Shown here piece after piece: positions 3,341 to 58,239 of a stretch of 64,000 nucleotides of DNA. Each line of letters starts with the position of its first letter. The first letter of the stretch is position 1. The translations under genes and the position numbers were made by a program. The stretch lies in the NCBI GenBank assembly GCA_902762375.1, contig CACWNY010000027.1, positions 11,400-75,399 on the forward strand. Direction: 5' to 3'. The stretch comes from an uncultured Ruminococcus sp. (lineage in GTDB: Bacteria; Bacillota; Clostridia; Oscillospirales; Acutalibacteraceae). Under the pieces are notes generated by a model, which was given only the letters and a program-made list of their open reading frames with translations, was not told the DNA's origin and made no database searches.

Positions 3341-3484
3341 CTGTGCGGTTGGAATGATTTTCTCATCGTATAGCTGTGACAATTAAAAGTTTTGTCCACT
3401 TTTTCAAAAGTGGTGGGGTCAAGGGGCAAAGCCCCTTGTGGGATTTTTAAGTTGACAGTAACTATCTGGCTTTCAACCGCACAG
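3341..3484 (+). repeat. MPE locus 2, internally deleted monomer with both terminal inverted repeats
   Basis: Left CTGTGCGGTTGGAA and right TTTCAACCGCACAG are inverted with 1 mismatch. A, B(CCAC/GTGG) and C are present. D and E are deleted at TTTTTAAG|TTGACAG. Starts 5 nt after the ABC ATPase stop. Confidence 0.88.
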
Positions 3485-12423: not shown

Positions 12424-12615
12424 CTGTGCGGTTGAAAATTAAATCGTTATTGTCAAAATTTGCTAACGCAAATTTTGGTTTGATTTTCAGGAGTTTAAGG
12501 GCTTCGCCCTTAAAAATCCCATCAGGGGCTTTGCCCCTGAACCCCACGAACTTTTTGAAAAAAGTTCGACAAAAACTTTTAATTGTCATAATAATCTCAA
12601 CTGTTCAGGTAGAAA
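12424..12615 (-). repeat. MPE locus 6, full monomer with both termini
   Basis: Left CTGTGCGGTTGAAA, then E, D, C (TCAGGGGC..GCCCCTGA), B (CGAAC..GTTCG), A, then right TCAACTGTTCAGGTAGAAA. Lies between the rnhA stop and the ldh RBS. Confidence 0.9.
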
Positions 12616-15719: not shown

Positions 15720-15941
15720 TTTCCACCTGAGCAGTTGGCATTATTCTAAAGTGCATAATTATAGAAAAGCAACCTGTAGCTATGACAATTAAAAGTTTTG
15801 TCCACTTTTTCAAAAGTGGTGGGGTCAAGGGGCAAAGCCCCTTTTGGGATTTTTAAGGGCAAAGCCCTTAAACTCCCAAAAATCAAATCAAAATTTGCAT
15901 ATGCAAATTTTGACAATAATTACTTGCGTTTCAACCACTCA
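15720..15941 (+). repeat. MPE locus 7, full monomer
   Basis: Left TTTCCACCTGAGCAGTTGG, a 40-nt spacer, A-B-C-D-E, then right TTTCAACCACTCA. Lies between the 80-aa VYGPP gene and the 130-aa ORF. Confidence 0.9.
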
Positions 15942-16881: not shown

Positions 16882-17949
16882 ATGTCTGAACAAATCAAAC
16901 TCAACCATCTGGAACAGTTACGGCAGTACAGACAGAAACTTCGCCGTGAACCTGTATTAAAATACTTATTTCTGGAACTGACATTGCGTTGCAATGAACA
17001 TTGTCGGCATTGTGGAAGCCGTTGTGGAGATGTCTGCACACAGGAAATGACCAGAAAGCAATATTTTACTTTTCTGGATAAAATCAAAGCAGATTTTCCA
17101 CAGTTACCCATGCTTTGTATTACAGGTGGAGAACCGCTGTTGCGTGAGGACTTTTTCGACATCATGGATTATGCCAACCGTCTGGGATTTGTATGGGGAA
17201 TGACAAGTAACGGTACACTGATTACTCCGCAGGTTGCCAAAAAACTGGAAGAAGTCGGTATGAAAACGATTTCAGTCAGTATTGACGGTTTAGAACAAAC
17301 ACATGACGATTTTCGCCAAAGTAAAGGCGGTTTTCGAAAAAGTGTTGAGGGAGTAAAAAATCTGTTGAAACACGATTTTAAATCTGTACAAGTAACTACA
17401 GTTGTTACCAAGAAAAATATTGGTGAACTGGAAGAATTGTTTTCTCTGATGTGTGACTTAGATGTAGATTCATGGCGTGTCATCAACATTGAACCTATCG
17501 GCAGAGCTTTGACTTTGGACGGTTATACGCTGGATAGGGTAGATTACCGTTATCTGTTCGGGTTTATCCGACAGAAACGCCGTGAAGGTTATCCTGTGAT
17601 GTACGGTTGTCAGCACTATCTTGGCATAGAATACGAAAGGGAAGTCCGTGACTGGTATTTTCTTTGCAATGCAGGAATTTATGTAGCGAGTGTTATGGCG
17701 AATGGAGATATCGGAGCGTGTCTGGATATCGAAAGACGCAGGGAAACCATACAAGGAAATATTTTCAAAGACGATTTCACAGAAGTATGGTACAATCGTT
17801 TTCAAATTTTTCGCAAACCGCTTGCCGACAGAAATCAGCAGTGTGCAGATTGTTCATCAAGAAATTTCTGTGAGGGTGGTGCTTATCATAGTTGGGATTA
17901 TGACAATAACAAACCTCTTGTTTGTTTCAAAGATATTTTATTTAAGTAG
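16882..17949 (+). CDS. radical SAM enzyme with C-terminal SPASM/twitch-like Cys cluster
   Basis: CNEHCRHC (CxxxCxxC), GGEPLL, and C-terminal CNAG...GDIGAC...CADCSSRNFCEGG. Confidence 0.85.
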   Translation: MSEQIKLNHLEQLRQYRQKLRREPVLKYLFLELTLRCNEHCRHCGSRCGDVCTQEMTRKQYFTFLDKIKADFPQLPMLCITGGEPLLREDFFDIMDYANRLGFVWGMTSNGTLITPQVAKKLEEVGMKTISVSIDGLEQTHDDFRQSKGGFRKSVEGVKNLLKHDFKSVQVTTVVTKKNIGELEELFSLMCDLDVDSWRVINIEPIGRALTLDGYTLDRVDYRYLFGFIRQKRREGYPVMYGCQHYLGIEYEREVRDWYFLCNAGIYVASVMANGDIGACLDIERRRETIQGNIFKDDFTEVWYNRFQIFRKPLADRNQQCADCSSRNFCEGGAYHSWDYDNNKPLVCFKDILFK

Positions 17950-17970
17950 AAAGTTTCCCCTCTAAAATAA

Positions 17971-18180
17971 TCCCACCTGAAACGGTGACAACCAAAAGTT
18001 TTCCAACTGTGCAGTTGAAAGTCAAATAGTTACTGTCAAAATTTGCTCACGCAAATTTTGTTTGAAATTTTGAGAAGTTTAAGGGCTTCGCCCTTAAAAA
18101 TCCCACAAGGGGCTTTGCCCCTTGACCCCACCACTTTTGAAAAAGTGGACAAAACTTTTAATTGTCATAGCTATCATAGC
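17971..18180 (-). repeat. MPE locus 8, monomer with duplicated terminus
   Basis: TCCCACCTGAAACGGTGA plus CCAACTGTGCAGTTGAAA termini, then E-D-C-B-A. The end is duplicated: GTCATAGCTATCATAGC. Confidence 0.88.
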
Positions 18181-18523
18181 TATACATGATAAAATTCACA
18201 TTTATAGGGAGATTTCCGAATATCTGAAAAAAGTGCAAATTTTAACTGTAAACATATTGAAAAAAAATAGTGATTATGATAAAATAGTGAATAAGCATAG
18301 TTGTATTTTCAGTATATAAATTGTTTGTTTATACAGTCAGATATTGTCGGTTTCAGCAATCATTTGCGATATCTGTAATTTTCATGACAAGCACTCACTT
18401 TCACTTCCCGATAGCAGAAATAACCGTAATCACCCTGAAATTGCGGGAATTTTTTGTATAGCGGAAAAACAGTATTTTCTAAAATATGACTGTGTAACAA
18501 TATTCTTTTAAGGAGGTTTTTAA

Positions 18524-21500
18524 GTGAGATTTCTGAAAAAAGGTTTAGCAGTAGTACTTGCCTCAATTATGTTGCAGAGTACGGTATGGACTTCTGTTTC
18601 AGCATTCAATACAGAAGTTTCGGAAGTTTCAGCAGGCACTTCATCTGTAGAGAGTGGTGTCAATCCTGTAAAGATAGTACTGGATAACACCAGTCTTTAT
18701 CTTTACGAAGGCGAAAGCGGTCAGATAGGAGCAACATTAAGTCCTGAAGATGCCACAGAAACAATTACATGGTCAACCAATAATACAAAGGTTGCTACTG
18801 TTGACGCAAACGGAAAAGTTTTTGGTGTCAGTAAAGGTACAGCAACCATTACCGCAAAAACAACCAACGGTCTTACGGCATCATGTACAGTGAATGTCAG
18901 CACTATGCCACAGGAAGTTTTTCTGGATAAGACATCTTTGACAATGGTAGTCAAAGAAAACTATCAGCTTATACCAAGTGTTTCTCCTGATGACGCTTAC
19001 GCTACTTATAACTGGTCATCAAGTGATGTCAGCACTGTGAAAGTAGACGAAAACGGTTTGCTGACAGCATTAAAAGTAGGTACAGCTACCATAGCGGTTA
19101 CCACTTCCAACGGTATCAGTACATTATGTACGGTAAAGGTAATTGCTCTTCCCACGAAAATCACGCTGGATAAGACCGAAGTTACCTTGCGTCCCGAAGA
19201 AACATTGACATTGAGAAAAAGTGTGACCCCGTCTAACGCAACAGCAGACTATGTGTGGAAAAGCAGTAACACTAAAGTGGCAACGGTTGACCAGACAGGT
19301 AAAGTGACAGGTGTAGCTTTGGGAGAAGCAGAAATCACAGTGACTTCCAGTAACGGAATTGTTGCCCAGTGTCATGTTGATGTCAAGAGATATCCTGATT
19401 CTATTGCTTTTGTTTATAAGAATGTGTCTATCTCTACCGATGCCCCCAACAATAAAGCAGACTTACAGACGATAATTTCTCCTGAAGATTCTTATACCAA
19501 GCTGGTATGGAAAAGCAGTGACACTAAAGTGGCAACTGTTGACCAGACAGGTAAGGTCACGGGAAGAAATGTAGGACAATGTACCGTTACCGTAACAACC
19601 GATAATGGTAAAAGTGATACCTGTACAGTAAATGTATCCAAAGAATCCGTTACGATTGATGATATTCCCAAAGATGAATCATTCCTTATGTATATCGGCA
19701 CAACAGAACAGTTTACCGCAACGGTATTACCCGAAGGTTCAACTTGTACATGGTCGAGCAATAATCCTGATGTTGTCAGCGTAGATGAAAACGGTTTGCT
19801 GACAGGTAAATCGTGGGGTGTTGCTATTATTACAGCCAGCATATCTGATAATGTGTCGGATTCCCGCATAGTGGTTTGTGGTGAAGAACCAAAATCCATT
19901 TACATGACGATTGACGGACAGAAAATTGCTGACGGTGCAACAATTTCGGTAGATGCACAGGATTATTTGATGATTGTTCCTGAACTGGAAACAGAATGGG
20001 CAGTTTCCAAAGTTGTATGGACCTATGAAAAAAATAATACAATTTCTTTTACCGTCAAAAAGGATACAAGTGTCGTTACCCTCAGAGGACTGAAGCCTGG
20101 TACTTGTAAACTCACAGTAACTACCGAAAACGGTAAAACAGCTCAGTGTACCATCAAAGTAGTAGCTGTCGTACAAAGTATTGACATTACCAATACCCCT
20201 CAACCTATCAAAATGAATGTGGGACAGAAGATAACACTCAATAAAAAAATAACACCTTCAGTTGCGGTTAGTAATTATACATGGAAAAGCAGTAATGAAG
20301 AAGTTGCTACTGTCAATGCAAGCGGTATGGTGACGGCAATGAAAGTCGGTGTTACCGAAATCAGCGTTACAGCTGATAATGGTGTCAGTGCATCTTGTGA
20401 AGTACAGGTTTGTCCGTTACCCGATGCGATTACGATTGTACCATCTAAGGTTTCGTTGTCACTCAACGAAGTAGCCACTGAAGGTCAGACAGTAAAGCCG
20501 TCTAATACACAGTTGTCTATTCGCTATACTCCTGAAAATGCGTATTCACCTACCTTAAAATGGGCAAGCAGTGACACTTCTGTTGTTGCCGTTAATTCTA
20601 CTACTTATGTGATAACCGCCAAAGATACAGGAAAAGCTGAAGTTACGGTTACCACATCAAACAGTAAAACAGCTACCTGTGAAGTAGAAGTTACAGCAAA
20701 ACCGTCATCGGTTCGTTTTGCAGAAAGTCCCAGCAAATACTGGATAAGAGTGGGTGAAAAAGCAACTCTTACACCTATACCTACTCCTGCACATGCCATT
20801 ACCAGCTACAAATGGTCAAGCAGTACTCCCGAAGTAGCAACAATAGATGAGAACAGTGGTTTGATTACCGCTAAGAAATTCGGAGAAACTACTATCACTG
20901 TAGAAACAGATAACGGTAAAAAAGCAACATTCAAACTCAAGGTTTACGCAAAACCGACAAAAGCCTATTTTGAACAGTCAGCAATGTCTATGTATGTTAC
21001 ACAGGAATTTACCTTTAAACCATTGTTAAGTCCTGAAAATTCTATTACAAGCGGTTATGAATGGGAAAGTTCAGATACATCAGTTGCCACAGTTGACAAA
21101 AACGGAAAGGTAATTGCTAAGAAAATCGGTAATACCGTTATCAGTGCAACCAACGACCTCGGACAATCCGCAAAATGTATTATTACGGTTTATCCTGTTC
21201 CTGAAACAGTAACGCTGAACCAGACAAGTGCTGATATCAATGTTTATAAGACAGTCACGCTTGTACCGTCCATTACGCCTGAAAATGCGTTGACAGCTTA
21301 CACATGGAAAAGCAGTGACACATCTATTGCTACCGTTGACGAAAACGGTAAAGTTAAAGGTGTAGCCGTAGGAACAGCTACCGTCACAGTCAGCACATCA
21401 AACAATAAGACAGCCACTTGTAAAATTAATGTCAAGAAAGCACCAACGAATGTATCATTTGAAAAAACTACTTTGAAACTCGGTGAAGGACAAACTTCTG

Positions 21501-22654
21501 TATTGACACCGATACTTACCCCAAGCAATGCCTATACAAAGTATTCATGGACAAGTAGTGACACAACCGTTGCTACAGTCAATTCACAAGGCAAAGTTGC
21601 GGCAAAGAAAGCAGGTAAATCCGTCATTACCGTAGAAACTCTCAACGGTAAAACAGCTACCTGTACTGTTACTGTAAGTAAAGGACCATCAAGCGTAGCT
21701 ATTGATAAAACAACAGTACAGATGGGTGTAGGCAGAACCTATCAGCTTAATGCTTCTATTACGCCCAGTAATGCTGTTACTTATTGTAGTTGGAGTACCA
21801 GTAAGAAATCGATTGCCACAGTCAGCGGTAAAGGTCTTGTTACCGCAAAAGGTGTTGGTACAGCTGTAATTACCGTAAAGACATCGAATGGTAAGACAGC
21901 AGAATGTAAAGTTACTGTAAAAGCAGCACCAACAGAAATCACTTTGAATAAAACCGCACTGGATTTAGGTCTGGGACAGACTTATACCTTGCAGACAGCA
22001 TTGACCCCTACTAATGCTTATGTAATGAACACATGGAGCAGTAGTAACAGTAATATTGTTTCGGTAAATTCTGTAGGAAAGATTGCCGCAAAGAGTGTCG
22101 GAAAGGCTACCATTACGGTAAAAACCTATAACGGTCTTACTGCACAGTGTGTTGTTACTGTAAAGACAGCTCCTGAAAGTGTTGCGATTAACAAGACTGC
22201 CATCAATATTGCGGTAGGACAAGATGTCACATTGACTTCATCTCTTACACCTTCAGACGCATACACTTATTGTAGCTGGAGTAGCAGTGATAAGAATATT
22301 GCCACTGTTTCTTCAAGCGGTAAGGTTACAGGTGTAAAAGTCGGTACAGCGGTCATCACCGTAAAGACTTCCAACGGAAAAACCGCTACTTGTAAAGTGA
22401 CTGTCAAAAAAGCTCCCACTGCGATTGCTTTGAGTAAAACAGCAGTTACCCTCAATGTTGGAGAAAAAACAACACTCACTAAAACTTTAACACCATCAAA
22501 CGCATTTTCCACTTATAAATGGAAAAGCAGTAACACACTCGTTGCCACAGTAAACAGTAACGGTGAAATAACTGCCAAAGGAAAAGGTACAGCGACTATC
22601 ACAGTAACTACTTTCAACGGACAGAAAGCTACTTGTAAAGTCACTGTAAAATAA
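18524..22654 (+). CDS. secreted protein with 16 tandem Big_2 (bacterial Ig-like) domains
   Basis: GTG start after AAGGAGG. Signal peptide MRFLKKGLAVVLASIMLQSTVWTSVSA. I counted 16 repeats of the ...W.SS....ATVD..G.VT....G.A.ITV.T.NG.TA.C.V.V pattern. Confidence 0.85.
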   Translation: MRFLKKGLAVVLASIMLQSTVWTSVSAFNTEVSEVSAGTSSVESGVNPVKIVLDNTSLYLYEGESGQIGATLSPEDATETITWSTNNTKVATVDANGKVFGVSKGTATITAKTTNGLTASCTVNVSTMPQEVFLDKTSLTMVVKENYQLIPSVSPDDAYATYNWSSSDVSTVKVDENGLLTALKVGTATIAVTTSNGISTLCTVKVIALPTKITLDKTEVTLRPEETLTLRKSVTPSNATADYVWKSSNTKVATVDQTGKVTGVALGEAEITVTSSNGIVAQCHVDVKRYPDSIAFVYKNVSISTDAPNNKADLQTIISPEDSYTKLVWKSSDTKVATVDQTGKVTGRNVGQCTVTVTTDNGKSDTCTVNVSKESVTIDDIPKDESFLMYIGTTEQFTATVLPEGSTCTWSSNNPDVVSVDENGLLTGKSWGVAIITASISDNVSDSRIVVCGEEPKSIYMTIDGQKIADGATISVDAQDYLMIVPELETEWAVSKVVWTYEKNNTISFTVKKDTSVVTLRGLKPGTCKLTVTTENGKTAQCTIKVVAVVQSIDITNTPQPIKMNVGQKITLNKKITPSVAVSNYTWKSSNEEVATVNASGMVTAMKVGVTEISVTADNGVSASCEVQVCPLPDAITIVPSKVSLSLNEVATEGQTVKPSNTQLSIRYTPENAYSPTLKWASSDTSVVAVNSTTYVITAKDTGKAEVTVTTSNSKTATCEVEVTAKPSSVRFAESPSKYWIRVGEKATLTPIPTPAHAITSYKWSSSTPEVATIDENSGLITAKKFGETTITVETDNGKKATFKLKVYAKPTKAYFEQSAMSMYVTQEFTFKPLLSPENSITSGYEWESSDTSVATVDKNGKVIAKKIGNTVISATNDLGQSAKCIITVYPVPETVTLNQTSADINVYKTVTLVPSITPENALTAYTWKSSDTSIATVDENGKVKGVAVGTATVTVSTSNNKTATCKINVKKAPTNVSFEKTTLKLGEGQTSVLTPILTPSNAYTKYSWTSSDTTVATVNSQGKVAAKKAGKSVITVETLNGKTATCTVTVSKGPSSVAIDKTTVQMGVGRTYQLNASITPSNAVTYCSWSTSKKSIATVSGKGLVTAKGVGTAVITVKTSNGKTAECKVTVKAAPTEITLNKTALDLGLGQTYTLQTALTPTNAYVMNTWSSSNSNIVSVNSVGKIAAKSVGKATITVKTYNGLTAQCVVTVKTAPESVAINKTAINIAVGQDVTLTSSLTPSDAYTYCSWSSSDKNIATVSSSGKVTGVKVGTAVITVKTSNGKTATCKVTVKKAPTAIALSKTAVTLNVGEKTTLTKTLTPSNAFSTYKWKSSNTLVATVNSNGEITAKGKGTATITVTTFNGQKATCKVTVK

Positions 22655-22673
22655 AACATAGCATAAAAAACAA

Positions 22674-22718
22674 AAAACACCTGATGATTTTTAAGAAATC
22701 ATCAGGTGTTTTCTTTTT
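22674..22718 (+). terminator. intrinsic terminator after the Big_2 gene
   Basis: ACACCTGATGATTT-loop-AAATCATCAGGTGT followed by TTTCTTTTT. Confidence 0.85.
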
Positions 22719-22742
22719 AAGGGCGTTTATAGATTGTCAAAT

Positions 22743-22900
22743 CAGCGGTTGGAATGATATTTTCATCGTATAGCTATGACAATTAAAAGTTTTTGTCCAC
22801 TTTTTTCAAAAAGTGGTGGGGTTCAGGGGCAAAGCCCCTGATGGGATTTTTAAGGGCAAAGCCCTTAAACTCCCCAAAGGCAAAGCCCTTAAACTCCCAA
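22743..22900 (+). repeat. MPE locus 9, monomer lacking E, with a D-region micro-duplication
   Basis: CAGCGGTTGGAATGAT terminus, then A-B-C-D. GGCAAAGCCCTTAAACTCCC is repeated twice. Confidence 0.85.
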
Positions 22901-22937
22901 AATTTTGTCAAAAGTTAAGGACATTGCCTTTTGAGAG

Positions 22938-23543
22938 CTAATTACTTATAGAAGTCATTTTTTCGGGGTCGAATTTACCTTTCAGACAGTAAGTAATAAA
23001 TTCATGTTCCAGACAATCACCGTTTGCTTCCATATTGATGTTAGCAATATCAGGATAATAATAACGATTGTGGATAATAACAGGAATTTCTTTACCGAAA
23101 CGGTGACTTAAAATCTGTGACTTATGGATATCTCTGACAGAATAAATCAGTTGTTCCGTCAGTCTTTCCACACTTTCTGTTGCAGGAATACGCTGTTGTC
23201 TGAACCATTCCCGAAGCATATTTCTGGTAAAACCGTCCTCTCCAAAACAGAACAGTTCATTTTGTAACCAAAATTCATAATTCCAACGGATTTCAATATC
23301 CTCTACATTTCGGCAAAGTTCATCGTGATAGTGAGTTTCGGTGTTGTAGTCAAAATACAGACGGATATCCTGTTGATTATCGTAATCGAAGTCAATAAAA
23401 AACGATATGGCATAGACATCGTCATCTTTCCAACGGGAAAATTCCTCCAGAAAGGCAAACCATATTTCACGGCTGATATTCAATGGCGAAAAATGATTAT
23501 TGTTAATATATTCATCGTTAAACAAAAGGTCATAAAGTCCCAT
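22938..23543 (-). CDS. hypothetical protein
   Basis: 201-aa ORF. Its start lies 4 nt after the recO ORF stop, with GAAAGGGTGA upstream. No family recognised. Confidence 0.55.
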   Translation of the reverse strand: MGLYDLLFNDEYINNNHFSPLNISREIWFAFLEEFSRWKDDDVYAISFFIDFDYDNQQDIRLYFDYNTETHYHDELCRNVEDIEIRWNYEFWLQNELFCFGEDGFTRNMLREWFRQQRIPATESVERLTEQLIYSVRDIHKSQILSHRFGKEIPVIIHNRYYYPDIANINMEANGDCLEHEFITYCLKGKFDPEKMTSISN

Positions 23544-23547
23544 AACT

Positions 23548-24420
23548 TCACCCTTTCAGACTGTCAAAATTTGCTGACGCAAATTTTGAGTTGATTTTTG
23601 GGAGTTTAAGGGCTTCGCCCTTAAAAATCCCACAAGGGGCTTTGCCCCTTGACCCCACAAGCCTTTGAAAAGGCTTGACCGAAACTTTTAAGTGGGTGTA
23701 CAGCAGATATTCTTCCGTACAGCGGTTCAATAGGCTTAACTTTTCAGGCGGTAAACTGAAATTAAAAAGTTTATTATATTCGCAGTAAATACAATGTCGT
23801 AATGCTGTTGTAACGCTTTTTCCTGTAAAAATTGCATATTCTTTTATTTCGGAGATACAATTACCACAAATAAGTTTTCCGCTTTTGGGGAGGAAATACA
23901 TTTCCTCTTGTTCGTAAGCGTTGCACTGACAACAACATACCAAATCAGGCATATATCCGCTGAGTACCATTAACTGTAATTCTACAACTGATTTTATCAG
24001 CGGTGCTGGACGCTTATTTGTATCCAGCATATATAGGGCGTTGAGTATCAATCGAAGATAGCTTTCTGCTTCCGTTTCCTGTGGTGCAAGATAACGGGCA
24101 AGTTCACAGAAATATTCCGCCAACGACATCTTGACAATATCTGTTCTCAAATGAGCAAATATCTTTTCACTTACAGCGTCATCAATTATGTACGCTTCCC
24201 GACGCTTATATAAAGAAAGCTGTGCATAACACAACAGTCGGGTAGCTTGTCCTTTGGTGCTTTTCAGACTTTTGCAGTTCTTGACAAATGCTCTGATAAC
24301 ACCAAGTTTTCTTGTCAGAACGGTAACCAGTCGGTCTTTTTCTCCTACACTCTGTTCACCGATAATCAGTCCGTCAGTTTCTATCTTCAAACTATTCACC
24401 TTTGTCTTTTTGCGTATCAT
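23548..24420 (-). CDS. recO: DNA repair protein RecO, C-terminus replaced or extended by repeat-element sequence
   Basis: RecO N-terminal OB region (GLIIGEQSVGEKDRLVTVLTRKLGVIRAF) and Zn-finger CCQC...CGNC. The last ~45 aa (VSVKPFQRLVGSRGKAPCGIFKGEALKLPKINSKFASANFDSLKG) are encoded by repeat locus 23560..23692. Confidence 0.85.
   Translation of the reverse strand: MIRKKTKVNSLKIETDGLIIGEQSVGEKDRLVTVLTRKLGVIRAFVKNCKSLKSTKGQATRLLCYAQLSLYKRREAYIIDDAVSEKIFAHLRTDIVKMSLAEYFCELARYLAPQETEAESYLRLILNALYMLDTNKRPAPLIKSVVELQLMVLSGYMPDLVCCCQCNAYEQEEMYFLPKSGKLICGNCISEIKEYAIFTGKSVTTALRHCIYCEYNKLFNFSLPPEKLSLLNRCTEEYLLYTHLKVSVKPFQRLVGSRGKAPCGIFKGEALKLPKINSKFASANFDSLKG
23560..23692 (-). repeat. MPE locus 10, E-D-C-B-A, lying entirely inside the recO ORF 3' end
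   Basis: CAAAATTTGCTGACGCAAATTTTG, TTAAGGGCTTCGCCCTTAA, CAAGGGGCTTTGCCCCTTG, CAAGCCTTTGAAAAGGCTTG, GAAACTTTTAAG. Confidence 0.9.
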
Positions 24421-24541
24421 TATGAAAATATTCGGGAAAATCTGCCTGTAATTCTTCTTTTTCTTTCAGAGCGGTATAATGCAGATAATCCAGAATGTTT
24501 CCTGTTTCAGAAAATGTCGCCCACGCTTCATAAAGTTCCAT
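24392..24541 (-). CDS. yqzL: YqzL-like small protein (49 aa)
   Basis: Hand-translated: MELYEAWATFSETGNILDYLHYTALKEKEELQADFPEYFHNDTQKDKGE*. The W..FS.TGNI..YL motif and the position just upstream of recO match Bacillus yqzL. Overlaps the recO start by 29 nt. Too short for the ORF track. Confidence 0.55.
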   Translation of the reverse strand: MELYEAWATFSETGNILDYLHYTALKEKEELQADFPEYFHNDTQKDKGE

Positions 24542-24609
24542 AATTACACTCACACCTCTTTCAAATTTGCTAAAGATAGTATGAGCTGTATAACCATAAT
24601 TATAGATAT

Positions 24610-24744
24610 GTCAAAATTTGCTTTTGCAAATTTTGGATTTTTTTGGGGAGTTAAAGGGCTTCCGCCCTTTAAAATCCTGACAAGGGGTTTCACCCCTTGT
24701 CCCCACAAACTTTTTGAAAAAAGTTTGACCAAAAACTTTTAATT
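24610..24744 (-). repeat. MPE locus 11, E-D-C-B-A
   Basis: The B stem is the CAAAC/GTTTG variant. C is CAAGGGGTTTCACCCCTTG. Confidence 0.9.
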
Positions 24745-24826
24745 TTTCACAACTGAATGTCATCATTGAACAATAATCTCATATAACAAAAATCAGATAA
24801 CAGAAATTCTGTTATCTGAAAAAACA

Positions 24827-25522
24827 TCAGCAACCTTCCTGACGGAAAACTACCGCAAAAGTGCCGAAAATGATTTTAATATCTACCCACATATTTCTTT
24901 CCATTATGTATTTTCTGTCAAGAGCCATCCAGCCTTCAAAAGAAATCGAATTTCTGTCAGGTTCAATCTGCCAGTAGCAGGTAAGACCAGGAGTAACCAG
25001 TAATCTTAATTTATGGGTTTCGTTATACTCTGCCACTTCTTTCGGGAGAGCGGGTCTGGGACCTACAAAAGACATATCTCCTTTGAGAATATTCAGTAAC
25101 TGAGGGAGTTCGTCCAGACTGGTTGAACGCAAAAATTTACCGATTTTCGTAATTCTGGGGTCATTCTTGATTTTAAATACAGGGCCGTCCATTTCATTCT
25201 GTTTCTGTAAAGCCTGTAACTTCTGTTCAGCGTCGGGACACATTGTTCGGAATTTGTATACTCTGAATGACTTTCCATGTTTTCCACACCGTTCCTGTGT
25301 AAAGAAAGGGGAATGTCTGTCTTCCAGAAAAATCAGCAACGAAATTATCAGAAAAACAGGAACCAGCACAATTAAAGCAATAAACGACATCACAATATCA
25401 AACAGTCTTTTGCAAAAATTATAAAAAGGCTTTTCCTGAAATGTAAAACTATCAACATTTTCCACAAGTTGGCTATCTCTGACAAGCGTTTCTTTACTCA
25501 TTATTGTATACTCCACATTCAT
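24827..25522 (-). CDS. undecaprenyl-phosphate sugar phosphotransferase (WbaP/CpsE/EpsL family)
   Basis: DELPQLLNILKGDMSFVGPRP and one N-terminal TM helix. Start set to ATG 25522 after GGAGGGA. Confidence 0.85.
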   Translation of the reverse strand: MNVEYTIMSKETLVRDSQLVENVDSFTFQEKPFYNFCKRLFDIVMSFIALIVLVPVFLIISLLIFLEDRHSPFFTQERCGKHGKSFRVYKFRTMCPDAEQKLQALQKQNEMDGPVFKIKNDPRITKIGKFLRSTSLDELPQLLNILKGDMSFVGPRPALPKEVAEYNETHKLRLLVTPGLTCYWQIEPDRNSISFEGWMALDRKYIMERNMWVDIKIIFGTFAVVFRQEGC

Positions 25523-25556
25523 ACAAATTCCCTCCTGTCTTGAACACAAACAGGTT

Positions 25557-26315
25557 CTAAATCCAGAAGTTCAGAAACTTTTTGGGTTTCTTCACTACAC
25601 TTAAATCAATATCTTCTCCATTGAACACTTTTTCGCTGTTATCTGTCAGCCACTGTACATAATCCTCTCCGAATGCTCTACGGACAACTTCATATCCTTC
25701 TTTTACATTAGGAATGCGATGTTCGTCTGAGTGGCTGTCACTACATATAAAATGCACTAAATCCCACTTCAGATATTTCATTGCTGTCCTTTTACGGACA
25801 CTGTTCTTTATCAGCGTTTCTGCATTGATATGTGCCAGACAACCGTCCATAACCAAATCATACAACAAGGTAGGGTCTTCCGCAAAATAACCGTACCGTT
25901 CCACATGAGCCAGTATAGGGGTATATCCCATACCTAAAAGACTGGTCAATGCTTCTTTAATTCCATACGGTTTCATTTTTGTAGAAAACTCTATCAGCAT
26001 ATAGTCGCTACCCTCAAAACAGAGTGGCTGTAAATCTTCCAGTTCCAGTAGTTTCAGTGAAAAGTAGACTTCTGACCCTGTTTTCAGCGTCATATCCAGT
26101 TTCTGACATTCTTCATTCGACAATAATATCTGCTTGCTTTCTTCTCTTTTCTGAAGAAATTCTTCATAGGTCATTTCGTCAATCTTAAAATGCGGTGTGA
26201 ACATGACTTTATCCACACCCTGTTCTTTCTGCATTTTAAGCATATTCAAAGAAATTTCAAGATTTTTTGACCCATCATCTATTCCAGGCAATATATGACA
26301 ATGTAAGTCAATCAT
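25557..26315 (-). CDS. tyrosine-protein phosphatase, PHP family (CpsB/YwqE-like)
   Basis: MIDLHCHILPGIDDGS..., DSHS.... Confidence 0.87.
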   Translation of the reverse strand: MIDLHCHILPGIDDGSKNLEISLNMLKMQKEQGVDKVMFTPHFKIDEMTYEEFLQKREESKQILLSNEECQKLDMTLKTGSEVYFSLKLLELEDLQPLCFEGSDYMLIEFSTKMKPYGIKEALTSLLGMGYTPILAHVERYGYFAEDPTLLYDLVMDGCLAHINAETLIKNSVRKRTAMKYLKWDLVHFICSDSHSDEHRIPNVKEGYEVVRRAFGEDYVQWLTDNSEKVFNGEDIDLSVVKKPKKFLNFWI

Positions 26316-27082
26316 TTACTCTCTTCCTCACTACTACCACCGTTACCGTAATTGTAATTATAATAATAGTAGTCATAAGAATAGTAATCATGATAAGCCG
26401 TCTTAGATTTATCTTTATAAGCCGTAACAATCGCACCGAAAATCTTTGTACCTGCATTTTCTAAGTTTTTCTTTGCCTTGATGGCATATTTCTTTTCGGT
26501 GGAATTATGTCTGACAACCATGAAAGTTGCGTCCATATATTTTCCCAGAACGGCTGCGTCACTGATAATAAATGCGGGCGGAGTATCATAGACAATATAA
26601 TCGTACTCTTTTTCCAGTGCGGCAATAACTTCCTGCATACCTTTACTGGAAAGCAATTCTGTCGGGTTCGGCGGTGAAATACCTGCCAGAAGTAAACTCA
26701 GGTTCGTTCCGTTGACTTTCTTGATAGCGTCTGCAAGAGATACTTCCCCTTTAAGTACATTGGTAAGTCCCATTGCATTACGCTTCTGCGATATAAAGCG
26801 GTGCATACCTGGTCTTCTCAGGTCACACTCTACCAGACATACCTTTTTTCCCAGCTCTGCCAAAGATATCGACAAATTCAGACTGCAATTTGTTTTTCCT
26901 TCATTTGCCAGAGATGAGGTAATCATAATATTTTTACATTTCTGTGCAACGGTGATGAACTCTATATTGGTAGCCAGCATTTTGAACGATGCTACATAAT
27001 CAGACGGTGCTTTCTCGTCCATGATGCTGAACAGTTCTTTGACAACGGGTCTATTTTTTGATTCTCTCTTATTCTTACTCAT
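26312..27082 (-). CDS. BY-kinase, tyrosine-protein kinase (CpsD/YwqD-like)
   Basis: Walker A NEGKTN, LVECDLRRP, and a C-terminal Tyr cluster YHDYYSYDYYYYNYNYG. 4-nt overlaps with both neighbouring genes. Confidence 0.87.
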   Translation of the reverse strand: MSKNKRESKNRPVVKELFSIMDEKAPSDYVASFKMLATNIEFITVAQKCKNIMITSSLANEGKTNCSLNLSISLAELGKKVCLVECDLRRPGMHRFISQKRNAMGLTNVLKGEVSLADAIKKVNGTNLSLLLAGISPPNPTELLSSKGMQEVIAALEKEYDYIVYDTPPAFIISDAAVLGKYMDATFMVVRHNSTEKKYAIKAKKNLENAGTKIFGAIVTAYKDKSKTAYHDYYSYDYYYYNYNYGNGGSSEEESK

Positions 27083-27798
27083 TTGCTGAAGTCCTTTCCA
27101 TCAACATAAGGGATAACCCCCATCATCGGTAAACCAAGTGTATTGGTGATATCGCTTTCTGTTTTGAACTTCTTATTGAAGAGTTCTTTCAAAAATACGA
27201 TAACCAGCATAAAGGCAAGTCCTCCCATCGCACCAAGTAAAGCATTCTTCTTGGCATTAGGACCTATCGGTCTGCCGTTATTGGCAATTCTGGAATCGTC
27301 AACAACCTTTACTGAACCCGCTTCAACAACATCTTTGATTTTGGGTTGTGCCACTATAACAACATTGGCAATAACTTTCTTTGCAAAACTGGGGTCAGTA
27401 CTTTTCATGGATATTTCAATAACCTGCGTTTCGTTGACAGGTGCTACCGTAATGGAATTGGCAAGGGCTTCGTAGGTCATGTTAAGCTGCATTTTGTCGA
27501 TAACAGGTTGCAAGACGGAATTGGACTTGATAATAACCGAATAAGTATTGGCAAGTGACTGTGCTGCGGTCAGTTCACTGTTATTGACACTTCTTTCAGA
27601 TGTGTCTGAACGGTTGTTGTTGACGATAAGCTGAGCACTTGCTTTGTACTGTTTGGGAATAAACTGTGTTGTTCCCACATAGGCACCCACTCCGAAAACG
27701 ATTGCTGACAAAACTAAAGGAATGACATTCTTGCGTAATATCCTGAAAATAAAGGATAAATCAATTTCCATCTCTTTAGTTTCTTCTCTCTTCTCCAT
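27079..27798 (-). CDS. Wzz-family chain-length/kinase modulator (CpsC/YwqC-like)
   Basis: Two TM helices flank a Wzz-like loop. It is the first gene of the CpsC-CpsD-CpsB-transferase module. Confidence 0.8.
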   Translation of the reverse strand: MEKREETKEMEIDLSFIFRILRKNVIPLVLSAIVFGVGAYVGTTQFIPKQYKASAQLIVNNNRSDTSERSVNNSELTAAQSLANTYSVIIKSNSVLQPVIDKMQLNMTYEALANSITVAPVNETQVIEISMKSTDPSFAKKVIANVVIVAQPKIKDVVEAGSVKVVDDSRIANNGRPIGPNAKKNALLGAMGGLAFMLVIVFLKELFNKKFKTESDITNTLGLPMMGVIPYVDGKDFSK

Positions 27799-27831
27799 CT
27801 AAATTCCCCTTTTATTTTTATCTTTTACGAA

Positions 27832-27860
27832 ATTATACAATATTCCGTCAGAACAGTCAA
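27832..27860 (-). promoter_or_regulatory. promoter for the cpsC/D/B/transferase operon
   Basis: Minus strand TTGACT, 17 nt, TATAAT. Lies 34 nt upstream of the start at 27798. Confidence 0.5.
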
Positions 27861-28010
27861 GCCAATAGAAACATCTTGTAGCAATTTGTAAAAATCTCAT
27901 CTTTTTGCAAGGGATTTTTATCAATTTTTAGCACAATAATCAGTTGACCTCAACATAATCATCATTCTGATGACCGTTTTTTCTCATTTTTTCACAATTT
28001 TTTTGTTTAT

Positions 28011-28541
28011 TTATTTCTTGTTGCTGTCAAATATATCCAAAAAGACTTTTGCGGCAATATCTGCATTCTCTCCAATAACCATGAATACATACCCTTGTGA
28101 AAATTCCAGTTCATAATTCCGAATATACTCACTTTCTTTTGGACTTTCCTGAAATCCTTTCAACTTTGCGGTAATGTGTTCTGATACAGACGCTTTGATT
28201 TTCTCTTCATAATCTTCACTGCTGAGCTTGAAACAGGCAATTTCCATAGCTGACGCATTGGATTGTGCAATATATACCGACGCTTGAGTAATTCCGTCTT
28301 CAGGCACATCGAAGTGTCCTGAAATTTCACCGTTTCCAAGTTCTCTTATTCCTTTATAGCCCATTTTTTCAATTACTGTTTTGTTTATCTGTGCTACCGA
28401 AATTTCTGTCGCTGATGACCCTCCGTCTTCCCCACGACCGTTCACCCAAAAGACATATACCGAACTTAGTATGGCAGCTATCGCCACTAAGGCTATTACC
28501 ACAAAAGTAACGAATTTTTTCGTAGCAGAAGTCAATTTCAC
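28011..28541 (-). CDS. membrane-anchored protein, DUF4358-like
   Basis: N-terminal TM anchor. The ASVYIAQSNASAMEIACFKL...GYVFMVIGENA pattern resembles DUF4358. Start is either GTG 28541 or, with better RBS spacing, TTG 28535. Confidence 0.5.
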   Translation of the reverse strand: MKLTSATKKFVTFVVIALVAIAAILSSVYVFWVNGRGEDGGSSATEISVAQINKTVIEKMGYKGIRELGNGEISGHFDVPEDGITQASVYIAQSNASAMEIACFKLSSEDYEEKIKASVSEHITAKLKGFQESPKESEYIRNYELEFSQGYVFMVIGENADIAAKVFLDIFDSNKK

Positions 28542-28560
28542 ACCTCTTTTCCGTTAATTT

Positions 28561-28834
28561 TGCAGAGGTTTCACCCCTGCACCCCTGAGTTAAGGGCTTT
28601 GCCCTTAACAATCCCCACAAACTTTTTGAAAAAAGTTTGACCAAAAACTTTTAAGGCTCACTTTATTCGGAATGTTTATCTGAGTGTCAGCTATGACAAT
28701 TAAAGTTTTTTGTCCACTTTTTTTCAAAAAAGTGGTGGGGTCAAGGGGCAAAGCCCCTTGTCAGGATTTTTAAGGGCGGAAGCCCTTAAACTCCCTCCAA
28801 AAAATCTAAAATTTGCGAAAGCAAATTTTGACAT
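28561..28834. repeat. MPE locus 12, head-to-head dimer
   Basis: Left arm has a G-like GCAGAGGTTTCACCCCTGC, then D and B(CAAAC). Linker GGCTCACTTTATTCGGAATGTTTATCTGAG. Right arm is A-B(CCAC)-C-D-E. Confidence 0.9.
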
Positions 28835-28917
28835 AGATACAAATGTGACAAACTCTCTGTTACCTCAAGTCTGCCACATTTAATCATACACCTTTATCAA
28901 TAAATAATCAATAAATA

Positions 28918-30867
28918 TTACTGAATTGTCTTATTCTCAATTTCTTCCTTGAGCTTTGCTTTGAAATCCTCTACACTGAACGCTCCTAAATCGCCTGCTT
29001 TTCGTGAACGGATAGAAATTGTTCCGTTTTCGATATCTTTATCGCCTACCAGAACCATATACGGTATCTTCTCCAGTTGTGCTTCACGGATTTTGTAACC
29101 AATTTTCTCACTTCTGGTATCAACTTCACAACGAACACCCATTGCCTGTAACTCTTTCTCCACTTCTTTCAGACGGTCGATATGTCTGTCAGCGATGGGC
29201 AACAGTTTTACCTGTATCGGGGCAAGCCACAACGGAAATGCTCCTGCATATTTCTCAATCAATAATGCCAGTGTTCTTTCATAGCAACCGATTGATGTAC
29301 GGTGAATAATATACGGATTTTTCTTTGTACCGTCCTTATCAACATACTTCATGCCGAATTTTTCTGCTAACATCTGGTCAATCTGAATAGTAATCAGCGT
29401 ATCTTCTTTGCCGTATACATTCTTTATCTGAATATCCAGTTTAGGGCCATAAAATGCTGCCTCTCCTATACCGATTTCGTAATCAATTCCCAAATCATCA
29501 AGAATATTCTGCATTTTACTCTGTGCTTCGTTCCACTGTTCTTCCGTTCCGATATATTTTGCACGGTCGTTCTTATCCCACTGTGAAAATCTGTACGATA
29601 CATCTTCATACAGTCCAAGTGTCTTCAGCATGAAAATTGCCAGCTCCAAACAACCTTTGAACTCATCTTCCAACTGTTCGGGTGTACACATCAGGTGTCC
29701 TTCCGAAATCGTGAACTGTCTTAAACGGATAAGTCCGTGCATTTCTCCGCTTGCCTCGTTACGGAATAATGTTGATGTTTCATTATAGCGTAACGGCAAA
29801 TCACGATAAGAACGCTCTCTGTTAAGATATGCCTGATACTGGAAAGGACAAGTCATCGGTCTTAATGCGAAAACTTCCTTGTCTTTCGTTTCGTCACCAA
29901 GCACGAACATACCGTCCTGATAATGGTCCCAGTGTCCCGAAATCTTATACAGGTCACTCTTTGCCATAAATGGTGTCTTTGTCAGTAACCAGCCTCTCTT
30001 CTGTTCCTCGTCCTCCACAAAACGCTGTAACAACTGTACCACTCTTGCTCCTTTCGGTAACAGAATTGCCAGTCCCTGACCGATAATGTCCACTGTCGTG
30101 AACAGTTCCAGTTGTCTGCCCAATTTATTGTGGTCACGCATTAAGGCTTCTTCTCTTTGCTTGAGGTATTCTTCCAGTGCGGACGCTTTCGGGAATGCTG
30201 TTCCATATACACGGCATAACTGTTTATTGTTGCTGTCCCCTCTCCAGTAAGCACCCGTGCAATTCAACAGTTTGAATGCTTTGACTACTCCTGTCGACAT
30301 CAGATGAGGTCCTGCACATAAATCCGTAAAATCGTCCTGTCTGTAAAAACTGATGGGTTCTCCTTTAGAGGCGTGTTCCTGTGCCAGTTCTACTTTGTAA
30401 GGTTCGCCCATTTCGGAAAGCATTTTTATTGCCTCGTCAGGGGATAATTCAAATTTTTCCACCGCAATGTTGCTTTTGACAATCGCTTTCATTTCCTTTT
30501 CGATGTTTTCCAAATCACTTGCCGAAAATGGTTTTTCTACTTCAAAATCATAATAGAAACCGTTGTCAATCGCAGGTCCTATGGCAAGTTTTGCGTTGGG
30601 GTACAGTCTTTTGACCGCCTGTGCCAGAATGTGTGACGCTGTATGCCAGAATGTTTTTTTACCGTCTTTATCGTCAAAATTAAGGATTTCTACTTCACAT
30701 TCACTGTCGGCATTAAGCACCGTTCTTAAATCCACAACTGCACCATCTACCTTGCCGACACACGCATTTTTATAAATTCCTCCACCAAGCGATTTCGCTA
30801 CTTCTCCGACAGTTACTCCATTGTCATACTCTCTTACACTGCCGTTTTTCAATCTGACTTTTACCAT
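28918..30867 (-). CDS. thrS: threonine--tRNA ligase
   Basis: 649 aa with TGS, editing, class II core and anticodon-binding regions (FWHTASHILAQA, RDHNKLG, FRNEASGEMHGLIRLRQFT). Preceded by a Thr T-box leader. Confidence 0.95.
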   Translation of the reverse strand: MVKVRLKNGSVREYDNGVTVGEVAKSLGGGIYKNACVGKVDGAVVDLRTVLNADSECEVEILNFDDKDGKKTFWHTASHILAQAVKRLYPNAKLAIGPAIDNGFYYDFEVEKPFSASDLENIEKEMKAIVKSNIAVEKFELSPDEAIKMLSEMGEPYKVELAQEHASKGEPISFYRQDDFTDLCAGPHLMSTGVVKAFKLLNCTGAYWRGDSNNKQLCRVYGTAFPKASALEEYLKQREEALMRDHNKLGRQLELFTTVDIIGQGLAILLPKGARVVQLLQRFVEDEEQKRGWLLTKTPFMAKSDLYKISGHWDHYQDGMFVLGDETKDKEVFALRPMTCPFQYQAYLNRERSYRDLPLRYNETSTLFRNEASGEMHGLIRLRQFTISEGHLMCTPEQLEDEFKGCLELAIFMLKTLGLYEDVSYRFSQWDKNDRAKYIGTEEQWNEAQSKMQNILDDLGIDYEIGIGEAAFYGPKLDIQIKNVYGKEDTLITIQIDQMLAEKFGMKYVDKDGTKKNPYIIHRTSIGCYERTLALLIEKYAGAFPLWLAPIQVKLLPIADRHIDRLKEVEKELQAMGVRCEVDTRSEKIGYKIREAQLEKIPYMVLVGDKDIENGTISIRSRKAGDLGAFSVEDFKAKLKEEIENKTIQ

Positions 30868-51523: not shown

Positions 51524-51689
51524 CCAACTGTGCGGTTAAAAATCCAATAGTTACTGTCAAAATTTGCTTACGCAAATTTTGTTTGGATTTGGGGAGTTTA
51601 AGGGCTTTGCCCTTAAAAATCCCACAAGGGGCTTTGCCCCTTGACCCCACAAGCCTTTGAAAAGGCTTGACCGAAACTTTTAATTGTCA
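51524..51689 (-). repeat. MPE locus 22, T-E-D-C-B-A
   Basis: CCAACTGTGCGGTTAAAAA terminus. B is the CAAGCC/GGCTTG variant. Confidence 0.9.
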
Positions 51690-51878
51690 TTTGTCCTCAT
51701 TGTAGCATATTCATTTCTGTTTTTCAACAAAAATTGGAAAATCAATTTGCAAATTTTGTGTGAATTTAAAAAATTCTTTTTCAGAAAAAATCCGCATAAT
51801 TCTGTCAAAGAAAAATCGCTGTGTTAATTCGGCGATTATGAGGCAAAATAACATCAGCACGAAAACGGAGGTGTTATT

Positions 51879-58222: not shown

Positions 58223-58239
58223 CATTTAGGAGTATTGTT

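What the first reader, a model, noticed from the sequence alone, without database searches (positions are those of the whole stretch)
23548..23700. RecO reading frame runs through an entire element: about 45 element-encoded C-terminal residues and an element-provided stop
RecO-like sequence ends near ...EEYLLYTHLK. The frame then continues through locus 10 (A-B-C-D-E) as VSVKPFQRLVGSRGKAPCGIFKGEALKLPKINSKFASANFDSLKG*, giving 290 aa against my recollection of roughly 240-260 aa for typical RecO. The next gene starts 4 nt after this stop, with its RBS at the element edge. Either the insertion replaced the native RecO C-terminus and the protein tolerates it, or recO is impaired. The same peptide-like strings (GALPLNPTNFLKKVRQKL, KGEALKL...) recur in many spurious ORFs of the track.
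Basis: partly seen in the sequence, partly recalled or inferred. Interest (0 to 1): 0.65.

Follow-up and report, generated by a model that had tools for sequence, protein, structure and literature searches.

The report
Deletion fuses recO to hairpin repeat
In this rumen-bacterium contig, 107 bases are missing that other assemblies of the same strain carry, so the DNA-repair gene recO has lost its last 17 codons and stop and runs in frame into a neighbouring hairpin repeat; the odd tail is a contig-specific lesion or assembly error, not a tolerated insertion.

Summary
The ORF is real as described: 23548..24420 (-), 290 aa at most, with a 48-residue non-RecO tail and the next gene 4 nt after the stop.

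Independent assemblies of the same strain are 100% identical over 6.7 kb on one side, with 0 mismatches over 5.9 kb on the other. They carry a normal 249-aa recO, its own TAA, 53 nt of spacer and outer repeat module, then the identical element and the same downstream gene. The window simply lacks 107 nt: 17 codons, the stop and those 53 nt. So a deletion fused recO to an element that was already there.

- The stop (TGA) lies 12 nt beyond the element, inside the next gene's ribosome-binding site.
- The lost segment is a confident C-terminal helix containing 2 of the family's 22 invariant residues. All 121 homologues keep it, and 12 of the 13 closest proteins have the native end.
- AlphaFold2 predicts the new tail to be disordered.
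- The window carries 7 more small indels against those assemblies, all in or next to element copies and mostly at the same element end.

This is either a real hot spot or a pipeline artefact; read mapping would settle it. If real, recO is probably crippled. Interest is low to moderate.

The parts
23548..24420 (-). Maximal recO ORF (290 aa). The likely start is the TTG at 24390, giving 280 aa.
23695..24420 (-). The part that is truly RecO (residues 1-242): OB fold, helical domain and Cys4 zinc finger (C163, C166, C185, C188).
   Evidence: 100.000% identical to L043 and L044
23694..23695 (-). Deletion junction (...GTACACC|CACTTAAAAG...). Relative to L043/L044, 107 nt are missing: codons for IEHHFQTLQFYHTFSES, the TAA stop, and 53 nt of spacer plus the outer repeat module. 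There is 0 nt of microhomology.
23551..23694 (-). The 48 codons of non-RecO tail (H243-G290). About 44 come from the repeat and the last 3-4 from unique flank. AlphaFold2 predicts the tail to be disordered.
23562..23694 (.). Core of the multi-hairpin intergenic repeat. On the + strand: A 23564-23589, B 23605-23625, C 23633-23651, D 23658-23677, E 23678-23694. As RNA on the recO strand it folds at -66 kcal/mol, z -5.9.
23548..23557 (-). GAAAGGGTGA: the Shine-Dalgarno-like sequence of the downstream gene. It contains the TGA (23548-23550) that ends the fused ORF and is unique flank, not repeat.
22938..23543 (-). Downstream 201-aa gene with no family match. It is syntenic and identical in L043.
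23633..23651 (-). Hairpin C followed by TGGGATTTTT. This is a terminator-like site on the recO strand and now lies inside the fused ORF.
   Evidence: consensus scan only

Best explanation
A recent deletion allele of recO, specific to this lineage or sub-population.

In the ancestral arrangement recO (249 aa) ends with its own TAA. About 56 nt later comes a multi-hairpin intergenic repeat, and the next gene follows immediately. In the DNA behind this contig, 107 nt were lost by a blunt join with no homology. One end of the loss lies in recO codon 243. The other lies exactly at the conserved left end of the repeat core (...TAGCTGTGA^CACTTAAAAG).

By a 1-in-3 chance the join is in the one frame that is open through the repeat. 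Translation therefore runs on for 48 codons and stops at a TGA inside the next gene's ribosome-binding site.

The product lacks the last helix of RecO and carries a basic tail predicted to be disordered. It is most likely a null or hypomorphic RecO, not a functional chimera.

- **Shown:** the deletion relative to the same strain, the loss of conserved residues, and the rarity of the allele.
- **Inferred:** that the deletion exists in cells rather than only in the assembly, that the repeat end is a breakage hot spot, and that function is lost.
For: - **Same strain, native recO.** L043 matches the window at 100.000% over 6696 bp (window 30390..23695), with 0 mismatches over 5947 bp (23694..17739). 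L044 is 100% identical over 2704 bp. Both carry the native recO end plus the same element.
- **The arrangement is old.** A strain about 6% diverged (L056) has the same native arrangement.
- **The allele is rare.** Twelve of 13 members of the 90% cluster have the native C-terminus. Only P0128, which is this contig's protein, has the tail.
- **The lost segment is conserved.** L240 and F242 are invariant and T239 is at least 90% conserved among 121 homologues. These are 2 of only 22 invariant columns. All 121 keep an F-x-[T/A/S]-L-x-F motif.
- **Structure.** The native AlphaFold2 model has mean pLDDT 94 with a helix at 238-247. In the fused model residues 249-282 have pLDDT below 50.
- **Function of that region in E. 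coli.** The native model superposes on E. coli RecO 3Q8D over 249 columns, TM 0.77-0.83. [quoted passage not shown]
- **The junction needs real reads.** It shares no k-mer with either flank or with other repeat copies. A de Bruijn graph assembler could only output it if reads contained it (inference).
- **The same repeat end varies naturally.** Diverged strains carry different outer modules joined to the same core, and tandem module duplications occur.
Against: - The allele is seen in a single contig. No independent protein or contig carries the junction.
- Against base-identical assemblies the window has 8 indels and only 5 mismatches in about 57 kb, and all 8 indels are in or at repeats. The two other assemblies differ by 3 SNPs yet show no indel between them over 12.7 kb with 7 repeat loci. 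That asymmetry fits a pipeline-specific problem.
- No reads were available.
- Loss of function is inferred from conservation and models, not measured.
Confidence: 0.55

Rival explanations
1. Assembly or post-assembly artefact. The organism has the native 249-aa recO, and the 107-nt gap was introduced when this contig was built or polished through repeat-rich DNA, together with the seven other repeat-associated indels.
For: - Eight indels against 5 mismatches in about 57 kb, compared with assemblies that are otherwise base-identical. Every indel lies in or at a repeat copy, and six are losses in the window.
- At least two of the 5 mismatches (15844, 15861) also lie inside a repeat, which suggests cross-talk between copies.
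- Three other assemblies (ERZ28613636, ERZ27279989, ERZ1029111) give the native allele.
- The fused protein occurs once in about 15 billion sequences.
Against: - All six deletion junctions have 0-1 nt of microhomology. One side of the recO junction is unique coding sequence, so k-mer collapse or path switching between repeat copies cannot create it.
- A 9-nt tandem duplication is likewise not a typical graph artefact.
- The breakpoints cluster at single phosphodiester positions (three at AATTG^TCA), which looks enzymatic rather than algorithmic.
Confidence: 0.38
2. One reading: a mobile element inserted into the 3' end of recO, replaced the native C-terminus and supplied the stop, and the chimeric RecO is tolerated and functional, as with Rickettsia palindromic elements.
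For: - The repeats are numerous, and the copy upstream of recO is absent from more distant relatives, so the family can move.
- In-frame MITE fusions are known from the literature (PMC10969869).
- A few RecO homologues tolerate 12-27 extra residues after the last helix.
Against: - The element is already in place downstream of an intact recO in the same strain. The difference is a deletion, not an insertion.
- The stop lies outside the element.
- The native helix is lost rather than displaced, and no homologue lacks it.
- The tail is predicted to be disordered.
Confidence: 0.04
3. The fusion is selected for a regulatory effect. Ribosomes now read through the hairpins and terminate 4 nt before the next start codon, which would couple translation of the 201-aa gene to recO and prevent terminator-like hairpin C from forming.
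For: - The stop overlaps the next gene's Shine-Dalgarno sequence, with a 4-nt spacing.
- A terminator-like hairpin C with a U-run lies on the recO strand.
- The repeat folds strongly as RNA.
Against: - The allele is unique to one contig and destroys invariant RecO residues.
- The native arrangement with the same spacing of element to start codon is conserved across strains.
- There are no expression data.
Confidence: 0.03

Closest known systems
Rickettsia palindromic elements (RPE) and other MITEs that form in-frame fusions with host ORFs (review PMC10969869)
   Same: A roughly 130-nt palindrome-rich repeat is translated as part of a housekeeping protein, and the repeat has one frame free of stops.
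   Different: RPEs insert inside genes and the native sequence resumes after them; they are also conserved in orthologues. Here nothing inserted. A deletion joined the gene to a pre-existing downstream repeat, the native C-terminus is lost, and the allele is seen in one contig only.
Modular intergenic repeats: pneumococcal BOX (boxA-B-C), E. coli REP/BIME, Neisseria Correia elements, ERIC
   Same: Short non-coding units built from several hairpin modules. Module content and orientation vary, copy number is very high, and the position is intergenic and often next to gene ends.
   Different: There is no sequence match to any Rfam family or to text in the searched literature. The density, about 34 loci in 64 kb, is unusually high. 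Terminal inverted repeats and target duplications are not clear, and no cognate transposase or RAYT was identified.
IS/transposon 'adjacent deletions' that start exactly at an element end and extend into flanking DNA (textbook knowledge; not tested here)
   Same: One deletion end sits at a fixed position at the conserved end of the repeat core and the other at a variable distance in flanking DNA. A 9-nt duplication at the same position in another copy resembles a staggered cut that was filled in.
   Different: No transposase is known for these repeats. Some breakpoints lie 4 or 9 nt away or inside the element. The events may not be biological at all.
RecO of E. coli (PDB 3Q8D) and D. radiodurans (1U5K/1W3S)
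   Same: The native allele models as the same three-domain fold, TM 0.70-0.83, including a final helix. In E. coli the C-terminal helices form the pocket that binds the SSB tail (PMC3152348).
   Different: The window allele lacks that final helix. Whether this clade's RecO binds the SSB tail there is not known; D. radiodurans RecO does not.

Membership tests
RecO (TIGR00613; Pfam RecO_N PF11967 + RecO_C PF02565) | N-terminal OB-fold domain | tested here: met
   PF11967 matches residues 13-82, E 4e-13. Strands are modelled with pLDDT above 90.
RecO (TIGR00613; Pfam RecO_N PF11967 + RecO_C PF02565) | Helical domain with a Cys4 zinc finger | tested here: met
   PF02565 matches residues 92-241, E 2e-21. 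C163, C166, C185 and C188 are invariant among 121 homologues.
RecO (TIGR00613; Pfam RecO_N PF11967 + RecO_C PF02565) | Complete C-terminal end: last helix with the F-x-T-L-x-F-Y motif | tested here: not met
   The TIGR00613 match stops at model position 221 of 239. The motif is present in 121 of 121 homologues but absent from the window protein. It is present in the same strain's other assemblies.
In-frame repeat insertion of the RPE type | Element lies inside the ORF and native coding sequence resumes after it | tested here: not met
   After the repeat comes the next gene's Shine-Dalgarno sequence and start codon. The native 17 codons are deleted, not displaced.
In-frame repeat insertion of the RPE type | Fusion shared by orthologues or other strains | tested here: not met
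   One of 13 cluster members has it, none of 120 other homologues does, and the junction-peptide search found no second case.
MITE | Small, non-coding, many copies per genome | tested here: met
   About 34 loci in 64 kb, with cores of about 130 nt. Copies also occur in three rumen MAGs.
MITE | Terminal inverted repeats | tested here: inconclusive
   In some copies the outer modules share GCGGTT...ATAG(C/T)TAT in inverted orientation. They are variable and missing from many copies, including the right side of the recO copy.
MITE | Target-site duplication flanking each copy | tested here: inconclusive
   The flanks TAGCTATGA (left) and TAACTATTTGA (right) are similar in all copies rather than copy-specific. 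No clean duplication is seen.
MITE | Presence/absence polymorphism between relatives | tested here: met
   The element upstream of recO is present in all strains of the species and absent from relatives whose RecO is 77-81% identical (L002, L003). A different element in the opposite orientation lies at the recO stop in a second haplotype.
MITE | Cognate transposase with matching ends | not tested
   No transposase was sought. None is obvious among the window's ORFs of 180 aa or more (one search lists them only).
Intrinsic terminator | GC-rich hairpin directly followed by a U-run | tested here: inconclusive
   Hairpin C followed by TGGGATTTTT on the recO strand, and hairpin A followed by GTTGATTTTT on the other strand, pass the consensus scan. 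In both the T-run is offset from the stem.

The most novel reading that the evidence does not exclude
The left end of this repeat family (AATTG^TCATAGCTA^T) may be a site of active, probably enzymatic, DNA breakage. If so, it generates homology-free deletions and a 9-bp staggered-cut duplication faster than point mutations accumulate: 8 indels against 5 substitutions in about 57 kb between otherwise identical genomes. The recO lesion would be collateral damage from this process. More speculatively, the crippled RecO could itself be the cause, making this lineage a mutator for hairpin-associated deletions.
Probability: 0.15. Interest if true: 0.6.

Novelty: new member of a known kind. Interest (0 to 1): 0.27.

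Why it matters
**For annotation.** The 280/290-aa 'RecO' of this MAG should be flagged as a 3'-truncated fusion allele, or a possible assembly error. It is not a RecO variant with a new domain. Repeat-encoded peptide strings in this clade are translation artefacts.

**For biology.** If reads confirm the junction, this is a natural recO hypomorph or null in a rumen Oscillospirales population (closest named RecO hits: Acutalibacteraceae MAGs). It would also be a concrete example of a very dense hairpin repeat family eroding the ends of neighbouring genes.

**The broader pattern.** All differences between near-identical assemblies fall at one repeat end. That is worth a dedicated look, because it is either a new mutational hot spot or a systematic assembly hazard for repeat-rich MAGs.

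Tried and rejected
- **Genome-contig scan with RecO.** Every hit came from the repeat-encoded peptide KAPCGIFK. The apparent upstream extensions in L006 and L011 are not RecO. The window's species is not among the representatives for the RecO-specific patterns.
- **Two JGI metagenome scans.** The junction pattern found 0 hits, and a 19-mer upstream of it gave 9 chance hits in unrelated genes.
- **Exact look-up of P0128.** Nothing on record.
- **Junction-spanning 82-aa peptide search.** It returned only one repeat-derived 'hypothetical protein'.
- **Look-up of the downstream 201-aa protein.** No further contig variants appeared.
- **Rfam, at gathering and E-value thresholds.** No family matches the repeat. 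Two miRNA-precursor hits well below the gathering score are chance hairpins.
- **Literature.** String searches for repeat sequences and peptides found nothing, and no paper describes these repeats in Ruminococcus or Acutalibacteraceae.
- **Family searches on the downstream gene.** Pfam and NCBIfam gave nothing above noise.
- **Mechanisms considered and rejected for the deletion.**
  - Replication slippage or k-mer collapse: microhomology is only 0-1 nt.
  - Adaptor or vector trimming: the six deleted segments share no common sequence.
  - Insertion polarity, with the window ancestral: the deleted codons are conserved across the family.

Full report
**1. What is in the window**

The minus strand carries an ORF at 23548..24420 of 290 codons. 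Its C-terminal 48 residues read HLKVSVKPFQRLVGSRGKAPCGIFKGEALKLPKINSKFASANFDSLKG. The protein is RecO:
- RecO_N matches residues 13-82 and RecO_C matches 92-241.
- TIGR00613 matches residues 14-238 but only reaches model position 221 of 239.

The next ORF (22938..23543, 201 aa, no family match) starts 4 nt after the TGA.

The tail is encoded by one copy of a multi-hairpin repeat. This repeat occurs at about 34 loci in the 64-kb window, in both orientations and with variable module content. In this copy the hairpins lie at A 23564-23589, B 23605-23625, C 23633-23651, D 23658-23677 and E 23678-23694. As RNA on the recO strand it folds at -66 kcal/mol, z = -5.9.

**2. Where RecO ends, and what orthologues have**

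Six hundred and nine homologues were found. The best 120 are mostly 245-261 aa, with a few longer. Aligned, they all continue after ...EEYLL-x-x with a short segment of consensus xExxFxTLxFYKxIxx. The window protein diverges after T242.

In the 121-sequence alignment, numbered on the native 249-aa protein:
- L240 and F242 are invariant and T239 is at least 90% conserved. These are 2 of only 22 invariant columns in the whole protein.
- All 121 sequences keep an F-x-[T/A/S]-L-x-F core. A few carry 12-27 extra residues after it, but none lacks it.

**3. The decisive comparison: the same strain, other assemblies**

The 90% cluster around the closest hit has 13 members. Twelve end natively (...YT[I/T]EHHFQTLQFY[H/R]TFS..). 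Only P0128 (280 aa, one 79,168-bp contig, NCBI+ENA) has the tail. P0128 is the window's protein called from the TTG start.

P0121 (249 aa) is identical to the window protein up to T232/T242. It lies on three contigs. Two of them were retrieved and aligned:
- L043 (ENA ERZ28613636, scaffold_524) matches the window at 100.000% over 6696 bp up to position 23695, and with 0 mismatches over 5947 bp from 23694 onward.
- L044 (ERZ1029111) is 100% identical over 2704 bp.

In both, recO ends IEHHFQTLQFYHTFSES-TAA. Then come 53 nt (GGTTCATTTATTCGTAATGCGGTTAGAATGATATTCTCATCGTATAGCTGTGA). After that comes the very same element, base for base, from CACTTAAAAGTTTCGG; L043 continues through it into the same downstream gene, whereas L044 ends inside the element.

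The window therefore lacks exactly 107 nt. No element inserted. A deletion joined recO codon 242 to an element that was already there. A strain about 6% diverged (L056) has the same native arrangement, so that arrangement is old and the deletion is new.

**4. The stop and the frame**

Copies of the repeat share sequence up to ...GCAAATTTTGACA(A/G)T. Beyond that the recO copy is unique (CTGAAAGGGTGAAGTTATG) and is identical in L043. The TGA lies 12 nt past the element, inside the Shine-Dalgarno-like GAAAGGGTGA of the next gene. The stop is therefore not element-provided.

Only one of the three frames is open through this copy. The others stop after 1 and 23 codons. A long tail is thus about a 1-in-3 consequence of any fusion.

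The likely true start is the TTG at 24390, preceded by AAAGGTGA and matching the orthologue N-terminus MKIxTDG. That gives 280 aa for the fused protein against 249 aa native.

**5. Consequence for the protein**

- AlphaFold2 on the native sequence with 121 homologues gives mean pLDDT 94, with a final helix at 238-247.
- The model matches RecO structures, including E. coli 3Q8D over 249 columns, TM 0.77-0.83.
- In the fused protein residues 249-282 have pLDDT below 50. The tail neither packs nor replaces the helix.
- For E. coli RecO, the paper describing 3Q8D states that the SSB-tail pocket is formed mostly by C-terminal helices, that Arg-229 of 242 lines it, and that the extra C-terminal helix distinguishes it from D. 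radiodurans RecO (PMC3152348).

I infer that the fused allele is a hypomorph or null. This is inference, not measurement.

**6. Is the deletion real?**

I compared the window with independent assemblies of the same strain over about 57 kb (L043, L059 and L060 from one scaffold; L058 from a 79,030-bp MEGAHIT contig). There are only 5 mismatches but 8 indels, and every indel lies in or at a repeat copy:

| Window position | Change in the window |
|---|---|
| 1508 | -91 nt |
| 3452 | -53 nt |
| 6239 | -15 nt |
| 12590 | -37 nt |
| 18165 | +9 nt, tandem TCATAGCTA |
| 23694 | -107 nt (recO) |
| 35250 | -32 nt |
| 49508 | +20 nt, tandem |

- Five of the eight have a breakpoint within AATTG^TCAT^AGCTA^, the conserved left end of the repeat core. 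Three are at the identical position.
- All six deletions have 0-1 nt of microhomology.
- L058 and L059 differ from each other by 3 SNPs but by no indel over 12.7 kb containing 7 repeat loci. The window is the outlier.

Two readings remain.
- **(a) Biological.** The repeat end is a breakage hot spot and this lineage has accumulated blunt deletions, one of which hit recO. The junctions share no k-mer with their flanks or with other copies, so a graph assembler could not invent them. Breakpoints coincide to the nucleotide. A 9-nt duplication looks like a filled-in staggered cut. Diverged strains naturally carry different outer modules joined at the same point.
- **(b) Technical.** The pipeline that produced this contig mishandled repeats. 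This is supported by the one-sidedness of the differences, the lack of SNPs, mismatches at 15844 and 15861 that sit inside a repeat, and the uniqueness of the fused protein among about 15 billion sequences.

Without reads I put (a) at about 0.55 and (b) at about 0.38.

**7. Other recO 3' ends in the species**

A second haplotype (L001, L054, L055, L057; about 90-98% DNA identity over the locus) has a different repeat in the opposite orientation. It starts right at the stop, so the TAA sits in hairpin B (CAA GGT TAA GGGCGTTGCCCTTAAC). The stop is at the same codon as in haplotype 1 (AGT TAA GGTTC), so it is ancestral rather than donated.

A relative whose RecO is 77% identical (L003) has a conventional terminator hairpin between recO and a repeat. 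The gene end is thus a habitual neighbour of these repeats, but only the window allele has lost coding sequence.

**8. Comparison with known systems**

The outcome resembles RPE- or MITE-type in-frame fusions (PMC10969869). It fails their defining features: there is no insertion within the ORF, the native sequence does not resume, and the fusion is not conserved.

The repeat itself is BOX/BIME/MITE-like: modular hairpins, high copy number, and presence/absence between relatives. It has no Rfam match, no literature match, and no clear terminal inverted repeats or target duplications.

The geometry of the deletions recalls IS-mediated adjacent deletions. That comparison rests on my own knowledge and was not tested.

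**9. Verdict**

The mechanism is wrong: it is a deletion, not an insertion.
- The feature is a contig-specific 3' truncation-fusion of recO, or an assembly error. It is ordinary in kind and of low to moderate interest.
- The more interesting lead is the clustering of all inter-assembly differences at one end of a very dense repeat family.

Noticed in passing
window 1508, 3452, 6239, 12590, 18165, 23694, 35250, 49508: Against independent assemblies of the same strain (5 mismatches in about 57 kb), the window has 8 indels, all in or at copies of the hairpin repeat. Six are deletions with 0-1 nt of microhomology. Five have a breakpoint inside AATTG^TCAT^AGCTA^ at the left end of the repeat core. 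One is a 9-nt tandem duplication of TCATAGCTA at that exact spot. This is either a mutational hot spot or a systematic assembly hazard.
   Followed up: partly
whole window, e.g. 1369-1502, 12431-12590, 15777-15941, 18034-18172, 51557-51690, 58064-58223: A very dense family of modular multi-hairpin intergenic repeats, at about 34 loci in 64 kb. Modules A-E plus variable outer modules occur in both orientations, often head-to-head. The family has no Rfam match or literature match. It is also present in the rumen MAGs RUG11850, RUG11803 and RUG158.
   Followed up: partly
L001, L054, L055, L057 (recO 3' end); L003:1600-1788: Other strains of the species carry a different repeat in the opposite orientation, abutting recO so that the TAA stop lies in the stem of hairpin B. 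L057 has three tandem copies of module D. A relative whose RecO is 77% identical has a normal terminator hairpin before its repeat.
   Followed up: partly
window 24392-24553 (-): A small ORF (53 aa from GTG; called as 49 aa in other assemblies, MELYEAWATFSETGNILDYLHYTALKEKEELQADFPEYF...) immediately upstream of recO and overlapping its start. The coding sequence is conserved even in L002 and L003, whose RecO is 77-81% identical, so it is probably a real small gene of unknown function.
   Followed up: no
window 22938-23543 (-): The 201-aa gene downstream of recO has no Pfam or NCBIfam match (best E-value 0.04, noise). It is identical and syntenic in the other assemblies.
   Followed up: partly
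window 22754-22782 (-); homologous outer modules at about 3345-3376 and in L043:6765-6803: The outer module type GCGGTT.GAATGAT.TT.TCATCGTATAGCT.TGACAAT contains a near-consensus promoter-like site (TTGTCA-17 nt-TATCAT) on its reverse strand. It points out of the repeat, antisense to the 3' end of the neighbouring gene. The recO deletion removed this module.
   Followed up: no
window 22852-22902: A 24-nt tandem duplication of the hairpin B region (GGCAAAGCCCTTAAACTCCCCAAA twice) within a repeat copy. It is shared with the other assemblies, so module duplications occur naturally.
   Followed up: no
window 18524-22654 (+): A 1376-aa protein made of Big_2 immunoglobulin-like repeats with a 243-nt DNA periodicity. 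It looks like an ordinary cell-surface protein.
   Followed up: no
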